NCBI RefSeq assembly: GCF_044324875.1
Contig: NZ_CP172185.1
Source of the DNA: Escherichia coli
GTDB taxonomy: Bacteria; Pseudomonadota; Gammaproteobacteria; Enterobacterales; Enterobacteriaceae
Length of the DNA: 64,000 nucleotides
Strand: one strand, 5' to 3'
In this document: positions 29,385 to 30,218 of the stretch, in pieces
Layout: every line of letters starts with the position of its first letter
Numbering within the stretch: position 1 is the stretch's first letter
Notes under the pieces: model-generated
Told to the model about the DNA's origin: nothing
Seen by the model: the letters and a program-made list of their open reading frames with translations, nothing else
Database searches by the model: none
Position numbers and translations under genes: made by a program

Positions 29385-29815
29385 TCTGTTATTCTCCTGT
29401 ATTATTACTTCACCAGCCAGAACGGTAGTGCGGAGCAAAAATACAGTGATAAGAATCCTCTTTTATTAATTTAATAATGCCAGGAATATTATTGTGTATA
29501 ATATGCGCCTTCAATTTAAGCAGCAGAAAAGCAATGACGCGAAAATCATTAAAATACATACAGATAAAACATCATAACTATAATTATAATAAGCGCGCTT
29601 ATTTTAGCATCTGAACATTTAAAGTACTGCTATCACAAAACAATAAAAATCCTGGGTAATATCTCTGATGATTGAATGAGAAATTCACGATGTCTGGTGA
29701 GAATTCTGTTCAAAACGAGGAATGCAGACATACATGTGGCAGGCATGGACTTCCACCGATTTAACTTTTTTCCTTCCTTGTATTTACACATCACACATTT
29801 TGCGCTACAAAAATT

Positions 29816-29837
29816 TCACGTGGCACGCACCACGTGA
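29816..29837. promoter_or_regulatory. Perfect 22-bp palindrome tcacgtggcacgcaccacgtga
   Basis: Exact inverted repeat read directly; candidate dimeric regulator site. Confidence 0.3.
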
Positions 29838-29872
29838 TCCGTAGAAAAGCCTCTTGTTACGAATTTCGTAAA

Positions 29873-29904
29873 CCGCACGTCTGTCTGGTCGTGCGGATTT
29901 TTTA
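29873..29904 (+). terminator. Rho-independent terminator-like hairpin with T6 tail, no obvious upstream gene
   Basis: ccgcacg-tctgtctggt-cgtgcgg followed by attttttat. Confidence 0.45.
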
Positions 29905-30096
29905 TCCGTCAACTTCACATGAAACCGCCAGATCACTGTTTCCGGATTCAGACATCAGGCATATTATCATCCACAATGTCGTGAACAAGATCACACTTTT
30001 GCAATTCCTTTATTGATCGAAAGCAGTTAATCACGGAAATTAATTACCGGAGTGAAAGCATTACTGCATCGTAAATATCTACCATTTTTGACTACA

Positions 30097-30126
30097 CCCT
30101 CTGACAGAATTTTCAGAGGGTTTTTT
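30097..30126 (+). terminator. Rho-independent terminator-like hairpin with T6 tail
   Basis: ccctctga-cagaattt-tcagaggg followed by tttttt. Confidence 0.45.
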
Positions 30127-30218
30127 ATCAGTTTCACCATCCAACCCTGTACGCCAGAATGGTTTCACTGTCACTCAGTTCTGCTATTGCCTTTTTCATC
30201 TCCCTTTACCTTACGTTC

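What the first reader, a model, noticed from the sequence alone, without database searches (positions are those of the whole stretch)
29800..30130. Orphan intrinsic terminators and a perfect palindrome in a gene-free stretch upstream of the adhesin: possible small RNA(s)
Two canonical rho-independent terminators (GC stem plus T6) lie on the plus strand at 29873-29904 and 30097-30126, with a perfect 22-bp palindrome (tcacgtggcacgcaccacgtga) about 40 bp upstream of the first. No plus-strand protein gene is available for them to terminate. This fits short noncoding transcripts, or fossil 3' ends of genes removed by the adjacent IS debris.
Basis: seen in the sequence. Interest (0 to 1): 0.45.

Follow-up and report, generated by a model that had tools for sequence, protein, structure and literature searches.

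The report
Orphan terminator hairpins upstream of adhesin
Three real transcription-terminator hairpins sit in a gene-free, E. coli-only stretch upstream of an island-borne adhesin gene; they probably end short non-coding RNAs, a well-known kind of feature whose expression is untested here.

Summary
The two plus-strand hairpin+T6 terminators are real: T1 at 29873-29904 and T2 at 30096-30126. Each folds at about -14 kcal/mol, better than all 200 shuffles. The "perfect 22-bp palindrome" is not perfect. It has 8-bp arms around a 6-nt non-palindromic spacer. On the minus strand it folds better and is followed by a T5 run, so it looks like a third terminator facing the other way. A strict terminator scan finds 8 sites in 64 kb against 0.6 in shuffles, and three of them lie within these 311 bp.

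The stretch 29385-30208 is the non-coding region upstream of a minus-strand YadA-like trimeric autotransporter gene. A truncated IS66 tnpA fragment bounds it on the right. It occurs only in about 370 of 5426 complete E. coli genomes and was never under an annotated gene in the rows and loci inspected. It has no Rfam match, no conserved ORF and no Pfam trace.

T2 survives in two very divergent alleles with a compensatory A-T to C-G pair, which argues for function. T1 and T2 fit the "type B orphan terminator" class, which yielded expressed island sRNAs in 14 of 19 Salmonella cases. Expression here is untested. The IS-fossil idea is geometrically unlikely. I rate it an ordinary kind of feature of modest interest.

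The parts
29873..29904 (+). T1, an intrinsic-terminator hairpin: 7-bp GC-rich stem plus 2 inner pairs that form only on the plus strand, 10-nt loop, then A and T6
   Evidence: Folds at -14.3 kcal/mol on the plus strand against -11.3 on the minus strand. Invariant in 40 copies.
30096..30126 (+). T2, an intrinsic-terminator hairpin: 9-bp stem, 8-nt loop, T6 (T7 in some copies)
   Evidence: The alternative allele keeps a 9-bp stem (-16.6 kcal/mol) with A-T changed to C-G at the stem base and a T6 tail.
29809..29837 (-). Inverted repeat TCACGTGG-N6-CCACGTGA (29816-29837). On the minus strand it is a 9-bp hairpin followed by AA+T5 (29813-29809), so it is terminator-like and faces the adhesin gene. 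It could alternatively be a protein operator.
   Evidence: Unique in the window. Invariant in 40 copies.
29857..29871 (+). Small hairpin TTACGA-ATT-TCGTAA between the inverted repeat and T1
   Evidence: The 93-nt stretch 29812-29904 folds into three hairpins at -30.6 kcal/mol, z -3.5.
29783..29811 (+). Weak candidate promoter TTTACA-17-TACAAA. The start would be near 29818, giving an RNA of about 87 nt ending at T1.
   Evidence: score 7.97, not above the window background. The hexamers are unchanged across haplotypes. Inference only.
29939..29967 (+). Candidate promoter TTTCCG-17-TATTAT, the best plus-strand hit in the region. The start would be near 29974, giving an RNA of about 150 nt ending at T2.
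   Evidence: score 9.46, roughly the top 100 of 640,000 scored positions in the window, so it could be chance. Invariant hexamers.
29961..29988 (-). Candidate extended -10 promoter TTGTTC-16-TGaTAATAT, mirror image of the previous one. The start would be near 29954, giving a minus-strand RNA of about 145 nt ending at the inverted repeat and antisense to T1.
   Evidence: score 8.87. The TG motif is lost in copies with T at 29968 (13 of 39 typed copies). Inference only.
29486..29615 (-). Predicted adhesin promoters in the 29-34% GC tract: TTGAAG-17-TAATAT (29514 to 29486) and TTCAGA-18-TATTAT (29615 to 29586). Perfect TATAAT hexamers on the plus strand at 29579-29590 sit back-to-back with the latter.
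29531..29630 (.). Hypervariable block A, with two alleles differing at about 35-40% of sites
30062..30120 (.). Hypervariable block B, with two alleles (a 26-nt indel plus about 40% substitutions). It includes T2.
27837..29384 (-). YadA-like trimeric autotransporter adhesin gene (515 aa from the ATG at 29384)
27320..27775 (-). Gene for a 151-aa protein with a sigma-70 region-4-like helix-turn-helix, just downstream of the adhesin gene
30209..30460 (-). Truncated IS66-family tnpA fragment, the right border of the unique non-coding stretch
   Evidence: IS66 homology covers query positions 120-369. Annotations.

Best explanation
The 820-bp gene-free stretch is the control region of an island-borne adhesin gene and carries three working factor-independent terminators. 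T1 and T2 end short plus-strand transcripts that encode no protein. These transcripts start inside the region and run away from the adhesin gene. One would be an RNA of about 90-310 nt ending at 29903/29904, started either near 29818 or at the back-to-back -10 elements near 29590. The other would be an RNA of about 150 nt, started near 29974 and ending at 30126. The inverted repeat acts on the other strand. It stops leftward transcription, either read-through from the upstream operon and IS66 or a roughly 145-nt RNA started near 29954, before it reaches the adhesin promoters. That RNA would overlap the T1 RNA tail-to-tail by about 95 nt. These would therefore be island-encoded small RNAs of the orphan-terminator type, most likely acting locally on adhesin expression through antisense pairing or insulation.

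Shown: the hairpins, their strand bias, their clustering, the absence of coding potential, and retention of T2 across divergent alleles.
Inferred: the promoters, the transcripts, and any regulatory role.
For: - Hairpin energies and z-scores support all three hairpins.
- The strict scan gives 8 sites against 0.6 expected, with 3 inside 311 bp. Most of the other 5 sites sit just downstream of long ORFs in the correct orientation (positions compared with the ORF list), so the scan does find real terminators.
- T1 has two extra inner pairs only on the plus strand. The inverted repeat has an extra G.U pair and a T-run only on the minus strand.
- T2 is kept in both alleles of block B although the 35 nt before it differ at about 40% of sites plus a 26-nt indel. 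The stem has only one changed pair and that change is compensatory (A-T to C-G). The T-tail is kept. By my own post hoc arithmetic, 2 or fewer changes in 18 stem bases at a 40% rate has p of about 0.008.
- No ORF is conserved across haplotypes and no Pfam match was found in any frame.
- There is precedent. Orphan terminators on the strand opposite to both flanking genes in Salmonella islands gave detectable sRNAs in 14 of the 19 candidates predicted from terminators alone, and many of the confirmed sRNAs overlapped neighbouring genes as antisense (PMC2330248).
- The best plus-strand promoter hit in the region lies between T1 and T2, where a promoter for a T2-terminated RNA is needed.
Against: - No transcript evidence of any kind is available.
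- Rfam finds nothing at E up to 1.
- The promoter scores are within what the window gives by chance. The tool's consensus scan finds no plus-strand promoter between 29620 and 30200.
- The whole module is confined to E. coli at about 97-99% identity outside the two blocks. The invariance of T1 and the inverted repeat is therefore uninformative: a 122-bp stretch of neighbouring debris is equally invariant.
- Only one compensatory pair exists in total.
- The inverted repeat's T-run is short (T5) and set 2 nt from the stem.
- No target stands out among translation start regions in the window.
Confidence: 0.5

Rival explanations
1. The terminators work only as insulators. They stop stray divergent or antisense transcription from the AT-rich, symmetric adhesin promoter region (T1, T2) and incoming read-through (the inverted repeat). 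The resulting RNAs are by-products with no function.
For: Perfect TATAAT hexamers on the plus strand lie back-to-back with the predicted minus-strand adhesin promoter in a 29% GC tract. The terminators face outward and inward as an insulator would need. No target is predicted and there is no known RNA family.
Against: Two plus-strand terminators in tandem 220 bp apart, with a candidate promoter between them, are more than simple insulation needs. This cannot be told apart from the best explanation without experiments.
Confidence: 0.2
2. The hairpins are fossils: relics of an older gene arrangement that now hitch-hike with the adhesin module without any present role.
For: The module is young and nearly clonal, so conservation proves little. 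An IS66 fragment, an IS1 and a transketolase remnant lie next to it. GC content jumps at about 29650, which could mark an old junction.
Against: The IS debris is on the wrong side to have removed a plus-strand gene ending at T1 or T2. No frame shows any Pfam similarity. There is no homologous DNA in phages, only one plasmid copy of the same locus, and no match to the T2 pattern in 100,044 species-representative genomes. The T2 stem and tail survive in two alleles that are otherwise about 40% different.
Confidence: 0.15
3. The 8-N6-8 inverted repeat is mainly a DNA operator for a dimeric helix-turn-helix regulator, for instance the sigma-r4-like protein encoded after the adhesin gene, rather than an RNA hairpin. 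This is compatible with T1 and T2 being terminators.
For: The arms are symmetric with a non-symmetric 6-bp spacer, and the site occurs once in the window. A helix-turn-helix gene with no relatives below 94% identity is always linked to the adhesin gene, except where a resistance-gene insertion has replaced the adhesin's 3' part.
Against: No binding data or second site exists. The repeat lies about 430 bp upstream of the start codon and about 200-320 bp upstream of the predicted promoters. The G.U-extended stem and T-run on the minus strand are not explained by an operator.
Confidence: 0.15
4. A type I toxin-antitoxin or other small-protein locus: a short toxic peptide mRNA with an overlapping antisense RNA.
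For: Face-to-face terminators imply transcripts overlapping at their 3' ends. One 30-aa minus-strand ORF at 29902-29994 has a hydrophobic N-terminus.
Against: That ORF has no well-placed ribosome-binding site. Its hydrophobic run is only about 14 residues. Its sequence changes by substitutions and a frameshift between haplotypes, and it is identical in only 1 of 12 copies. No other ORF is both conserved and plausible.
Confidence: 0.03

Closest known systems
Island-encoded sRNAs found through 'orphan' Rho-independent terminators (Isr RNAs of Salmonella; Padalon-Brauch et al. 2008, PMC2330248)
   Same: The setting is the same: a horizontally acquired island, an empty intergenic region, and a strong terminator on the strand opposite to both flanking same-direction genes (their type B). 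Many Isr RNAs overlap neighbours as antisense or share promoter DNA with a divergent gene. In that study, 14 of the 19 candidates predicted from terminators alone were detected.
   Different: There is no expression evidence here and no sequence relation to any Isr or Rfam family. Three terminators on two strands are packed into 311 bp. The locus is restricted to about 7% of complete E. coli genomes.
Canonical intrinsic (Rho-independent) terminators
   Same: A GC-rich stem of 7-9 bp, a loop of 8-10 nt and an immediately following T6 tract, at about -14 kcal/mol.
   Different: They do not follow any gene. The third hairpin has only T5, set 2 nt from the stem.
Convergent RNA pairs overlapping at their 3' ends, or bidirectional terminator regions (for example IsrC/msgA)
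   Same: The minus-strand hairpin (end about 29809) and T1 (end 29904) face each other, so the two transcripts would overlap by about 95 nt.
   Different: Both partners are hypothetical and non-coding here.
Inverted-repeat operators of dimeric helix-turn-helix regulators such as the LuxR/NarL type (from general knowledge, not tested)
   Same: An 8-bp inverted repeat with a 6-bp spacer, next to a linked helix-turn-helix gene.
   Different: No binding evidence exists, and the repeat lies far from the predicted promoters.

Membership tests
Intrinsic (Rho-independent) terminator | Stable GC-rich hairpin, more stable than shuffled sequence | tested here: met
   T1 folds at -14.3 kcal/mol (z -3.9). 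T2 folds at -14.7 (z -4.4). The inverted repeat on the minus strand folds at -14.2 (z -2.8).
Intrinsic (Rho-independent) terminator | U/T tract of at least 5-6 residues directly after the stem on the transcribed strand | tested here: met
   T6 follows T1 after one A. T6 follows T2 with the first T paired. T5 lies 2 nt after the inverted repeat on the minus strand, which is weaker.
Intrinsic (Rho-independent) terminator | RNA 3' ends map to the tract, and termination is orientation-dependent | not testable with these tools
   Needs Term-seq, 3' RACE or a reporter assay.
Bacterial small regulatory RNA gene | Own promoter at a suitable distance upstream of the terminator | tested here: inconclusive
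   Candidates lie at 29783-29811 and 29939-29967 (scores 7.97 and 9.46), but such scores occur by chance in the window. The tool's consensus scan finds none there.
Bacterial small regulatory RNA gene | No protein-coding potential | tested here: met
   No ORF is conserved across haplotypes and no frame has a Pfam match.
Bacterial small regulatory RNA gene | Membership of a described RNA family | tested here: not met
   Rfam 15 gives no match at E up to 1 over 27000-33000 and no gathering-level match at the locus.
Bacterial small regulatory RNA gene | Structure supported by covariation in relatives | tested here: inconclusive
   Only E. coli copies exist. T1 and the inverted repeat are invariant. 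T2 shows a single compensatory pair between two alleles.
Bacterial small regulatory RNA gene | Detected transcript | not testable with these tools
   No expression data are accessible.
Type I toxin-antitoxin locus | Conserved short hydrophobic ORF with a ribosome-binding site, overlapped by an antisense RNA | tested here: not met
   The only hydrophobic ORF (29902-29994, minus strand) is not conserved and lacks a well-placed Shine-Dalgarno sequence.
Dispersed repeat elements (REP/BIME, ERIC and similar) | Many copies scattered in unrelated intergenic regions of the genome | tested here: not met
   Nearly all of the 509 places in 370 genomes span most of the 391-bp query, and every copy inspected lies in the same adhesin locus. 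The inverted repeat occurs once in the window.
RfaH-dependent leader (ops element) | GGCGGTAGCGTG-like ops sequence in the leader | tested here: not met
   No match with 2 or fewer mismatches anywhere near the region.
Fossil 3' end of a protein gene | Residual protein similarity or an intact homologous gene upstream of the terminator in relatives | tested here: not met
   No Pfam hits were found. No annotated gene lies under the region in any relative inspected. There are no phage matches, one plasmid copy of the same locus, and no match to the T2 pattern in species-representative genomes.

The most novel reading that the evidence does not exclude
The three terminators delimit a compact two-strand RNA cassette. 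It would hold a 3'-overlapping antisense pair ending at T1 and at the inverted repeat, plus a third RNA ending at T2 whose 3' segment exists in two deeply divergent alleles. This cassette would set the expression state of a multicopy, hypervariable adhesin family. The biallelic blocks A and B would be regulatory alleles shuffled among copies by recombination.
Probability: 0.1. Interest if true: 0.55.

Novelty: new member of a known kind. Interest (0 to 1): 0.27.

Why it matters
If the RNAs exist, they would be unannotated island-encoded small RNAs next to a variable surface adhesin. That adhesin is carried by about 7% of complete E. coli genomes, many of them from poultry and human isolates. 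The RNAs would offer a handle on how such poorly expressed adhesins are switched on. The two biallelic patches in the control region would then be candidate regulatory variants. If the RNAs do not exist, the finding is simply a set of unannotated terminators, of use only for annotation.

Tried and rejected
- **Rfam:** E-value mode over 6 kb and gathering mode over the whole window found nothing at the locus.
- **Relatives outside E. coli:**
  - The linked helix-turn-helix protein gave no relative in GTDB species representatives. It has no protein homologue below 94% identity.
  - The T2 pattern gave 0 hits in GTDB representatives.
  - The T1 pattern in metagenomes gave 90 hits, of which 26 were the same E. 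coli haplotypes and the rest unrelated hairpins.
  - The phage collection gave 0 hits. The plasmid collection gave one copy of the same locus.
  - Covariation analysis was therefore impossible.
- **Fossil-gene test:** all stop-to-stop frames were listed and the ten longest (35-83 aa) run against Pfam, and two further pieces against NCBIfam. No match reached significance; the best Pfam E-values were 0.11 and 0.28.
- **Small-protein or type I toxin reading:** rejected.
- **RfaH ops element:** absent.
- **Operator recurrence:** no second copy of the inverted repeat in the window.
- **GATC (Dam) sites:** four sites in 820 bp against about three expected, and one of them is not conserved. Counted by eye; not enriched.
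- **Inversion or diversity-generating retroelement origin of the hypervariable blocks:** the alleles align colinearly and the substitutions are of all types. No silent copy exists in the window and neither allele occurs outside the locus.
- **Target prediction:** tested against translation start regions in the window. The adhesin ranks 20th of 77 and the top hit looks like chance.
- **Naming the adhesin as a canonical Eib protein:** NCBI names some alleles 'immunoglobulin-binding protein'. However, the protein matches no EibD structure in the PDB, only the YadA anchor and generic stalk pieces. I therefore call it YadA-like.

Full report
**What is there**

- T1 has the stem CCGCACG/CGTGCGG (29873-29879 and 29890-29896) and a 10-nt loop, then an A and T6 (29898-29903).
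- T2 has the stem ACCCTCTGA/TCAGAGGGT (30096-30104 and 30113-30121), an 8-nt loop and T6 (30121-30126).

As RNA they fold at -14.3 and -14.7 kcal/mol. None of 200 dinucleotide shuffles folds as well.

The third element is mis-described. The string tcacgtggcacgcaccacgtga (29816-29837) is an 8-bp inverted repeat around a 6-nt spacer that is not symmetric. On the minus strand it gains a G.U pair (9 bp, -14.2 against -12.7 kcal/mol) and is followed by AA+TTTTT. The scanning tool lists it there as terminator-like.

**Is it more than chance?**

The tool's permissive scan is not above its shuffles: 3 found against 2.4 expected in 3 kb. I therefore wrote a stricter scan. It requires a perfect stem of at least 6 bp with at least 4 GC pairs, a loop of 3-12 nt, and T5 or longer within 2 nt of the stem.
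- It finds 8 sites in the 64-kb window, against a mean of 0.6 in 30 dinucleotide shuffles.
- Three of the eight lie within 29816-30126.
- Most of the other five sit just after long ORFs in the right orientation (positions compared with the ORF list), so the scan picks up genuine terminators.
- At the window-wide rate, about 0.04 sites would be expected in 311 bp. This is my own post hoc arithmetic.

**Context**

The stretch 29385-30208 is gene-free.
- To its left, on the minus strand, lies a 515-aa YadA-like trimeric autotransporter adhesin gene (27837-29384). It has a YadA anchor and stalk.
- After that comes a 151-aa protein with a sigma-70 region-4-like helix-turn-helix (27320-27775).
- To its right, IS66-family tnpA homology begins at about 30209 and ends at about 30460. 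Beyond it are a transketolase remnant and an IS1.
- In one relative the transketolase/PTS operon is intact, but the IS66 fragment is still present. No IS66-free relative was found.

The window is E. coli. The region occurs in 370-371 of 5426 complete genomes, with 1-6 copies each, and always on chromosomes in that collection. No annotated feature lay under the match in any listed row or in any annotated locus I opened.

**Distribution and variation**

Nothing similar exists elsewhere.
- The phage collection has no match. The plasmid collection has one copy of the same locus.
- The 100,044 species-representative genomes gave no relative of the linked helix-turn-helix protein and no match to the T2 pattern.
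- The helix-turn-helix protein has no homologue below 94% identity.
- Metagenome hits to the T1 pattern that are truly homologous (26 of 90) are the same haplotypes.

Forty aligned copies show a mosaic.
- The core (29631-30061) is nearly invariant.
- Two patches each have two deeply divergent alleles. Block A (29531-29630) has about 40 variable sites per 100. Block B (30062-30120) has a 26-nt indel plus about 40% substitutions.
- All four combinations of A and B alleles occur (12, 11, 10 and 5 copies).
- Both alternative alleles are common, in 301 and 254 genomes, and are found only at this locus.
- The adhesin itself ranges from 63 to 99% amino-acid identity at the same locus.

T1 and the inverted repeat have no variable site in 96 bp. 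A 122-bp stretch of neighbouring debris is just as invariant, so this says little.

T2 is more informative. It lies inside block B, yet both alleles keep a 9-bp stem (-14.7 and -16.6 kcal/mol) and a T6-T7 tail. The only stem difference is a compensatory A-T to C-G pair. At the roughly 40% divergence of the adjacent 35 nt, 2 or fewer changes in 18 stem bases has p of about 0.008. This is my own post hoc binomial arithmetic.

**What it is not**

- Rfam gives nothing at E up to 1 and no gathering-level hit at the locus.
- No ORF in either strand is both conserved across haplotypes and preceded by a usable ribosome-binding site. The only hydrophobic one (29902-29994, minus strand) changes by substitution and frameshift.
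- The ten longest stop-to-stop frames give no significant Pfam match.
- There is no RfaH ops element.
- There is no second copy of the inverted repeat in the window.
- There is no inversion or adenine-specific mutation pattern in the variable blocks.

The IS66 fragment lies to the right, downstream of both plus-strand terminators. A gene ending at T1 or T2 would have been to the left, where the DNA runs uninterrupted into the AT-rich adhesin promoter tract.

**How it most likely works**

Both flanking genes are on the minus strand and T1 and T2 are on the plus strand. This is the 'type B orphan terminator' of Padalon-Brauch et al. In Salmonella islands, 14 of the 19 candidates predicted from orphan terminators alone gave detectable sRNAs. 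Of the 19 sRNAs confirmed in that study, 11 overlapped a neighbouring gene or shared its promoter DNA (PMC2330248). On that precedent I think it more likely than not that plus-strand non-coding transcripts end at 29903/29904 and 30126.

A position-weight scan gives candidate starts:
- TTTACA-17-TACAAA (29783-29811) would give an RNA of about 87 nt. That RNA folds into three hairpins at -30.6 kcal/mol, z -3.5.
- Perfect TATAAT hexamers at 29579-29590, back-to-back with the predicted adhesin promoter, would give an RNA of about 310 nt.
- TTTCCG-17-TATTAT (29939-29967) is the best plus-strand hit in the region. It lies between T1 and T2 and would give an RNA of about 150 nt ending at T2.
- Its mirror image on the minus strand (TTGTTC-16-TGaTAATAT, 29988 to 29961) would give an RNA of about 145 nt ending at the inverted repeat. 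This RNA would overlap the T1 RNA tail-to-tail by about 95 nt.

All of these scores are within the window's chance range. The tool's consensus scan finds no plus-strand promoter there. The promoters are therefore inference, not evidence.

The inverted repeat would also stop read-through from the upstream operon or the IS66 fragment before it reaches the predicted adhesin promoters at 29615 to 29586 and 29514 to 29486. It could equally be an operator for the linked helix-turn-helix protein. I cannot tell these apart.

**Comparison and verdict**

The hairpins meet the sequence criteria for intrinsic terminators. Membership of the small-RNA-gene class is not established: the promoter test is inconclusive, Rfam membership is not met, covariation rests on one pair, and expression is untestable here. 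They are best filed as unannotated terminators and candidate island-encoded sRNAs. That is a new member of a well-known kind.

The most unusual things seen are side observations: three terminators on two strands in 311 bp, and two recombining biallelic patches in the control region of a multicopy, hypervariable adhesin. Interest is modest at about 0.27. The decisive experiment is strand-specific 5'/3' end mapping in a carrier strain.

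Noticed in passing
window 29531-29630 and 30062-30120: Two short patches each exist as two deeply divergent alleles (about 35-40% different; block B also has a 26-nt indel), inside a region otherwise about 97-99% identical. All four allele combinations occur, both alternative alleles are common (301 and 254 genomes), and neither is found outside this locus. Their origin and meaning are unexplained.
   Followed up: partly
window 29588-29601: A perfect 14-bp palindrome, ATAAGCGCGCTTAT, overlaps the predicted minus-strand adhesin promoter. It is present only in the window-type allele of block A.
   Followed up: no
window 27837-29384; loci L010-L013: The adhesin at this one locus ranges from 63 to 99% amino-acid identity between strains, while its upstream region stays nearly constant. 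The locus is present in 1-6 copies per genome.
   Followed up: partly
L003, L005, L006, L007, L008 (relatives of window about 27800-29000): In many relatives a resistance region (sul2 with floR, tet(A), aph genes or dfrA36) replaces the 3' part of the adhesin gene. This leaves a 567-bp 5' stub and the whole upstream region. One such copy is on an IncI plasmid.
   Followed up: no
window about 31909-32420 (+): A ProQ/FinO-family RNA-chaperone gene 1.8 kb to the right is annotated as frameshifted in every RefSeq chromosomal relative inspected. It could be a fixed pseudogene or a recoding site. It is of interest because FinO-domain proteins bind terminator hairpins.
   Followed up: no
window 27320-27775 (-): A 151-aa sigma-r4-like helix-turn-helix protein follows the adhesin gene wherever the gene's 3' end is present. 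It has no homologue below 94% identity in 5.8 billion proteins. By analogy, from memory, with PapX and MrpJ at the ends of fimbrial operons, it may be a regulator. This is untested.
   Followed up: partly
window 29895-29909 and 30118-30132: T1 and T2 share the same tail context, GG[A/G]TTTTTTATC[C/A]GT (13 of 15 positions), although their stems are unrelated (D3).
   Followed up: no
window 29681-29710 vs 29361-29390: A 30-nt plus-strand stretch is 70% identical to the antisense of the adhesin start-codon region, with 8 perfect nucleotides (AUUCUGUU against AACAGAAU). A long plus-strand RNA ending at T1 could therefore pair with the adhesin translation start. Chance is not excluded (D1).
   Followed up: no
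L081 (metagenome copy), equivalent to window about 29746-29816: One metagenome copy has a deletion of about 60-70 bp ending at the left edge of the inverted repeat. It removes the weak TTTACA-17-TACAAA candidate promoter.
   Followed up: no
window 21696-21812, 55872-55942, 62615-62657: Rfam gathering-level hits elsewhere in the window: the ALIL pseudoknot (an IS3-type frameshift signal), naRNA4 and ES036. No tRNA gene is present in the window.
   Followed up: no
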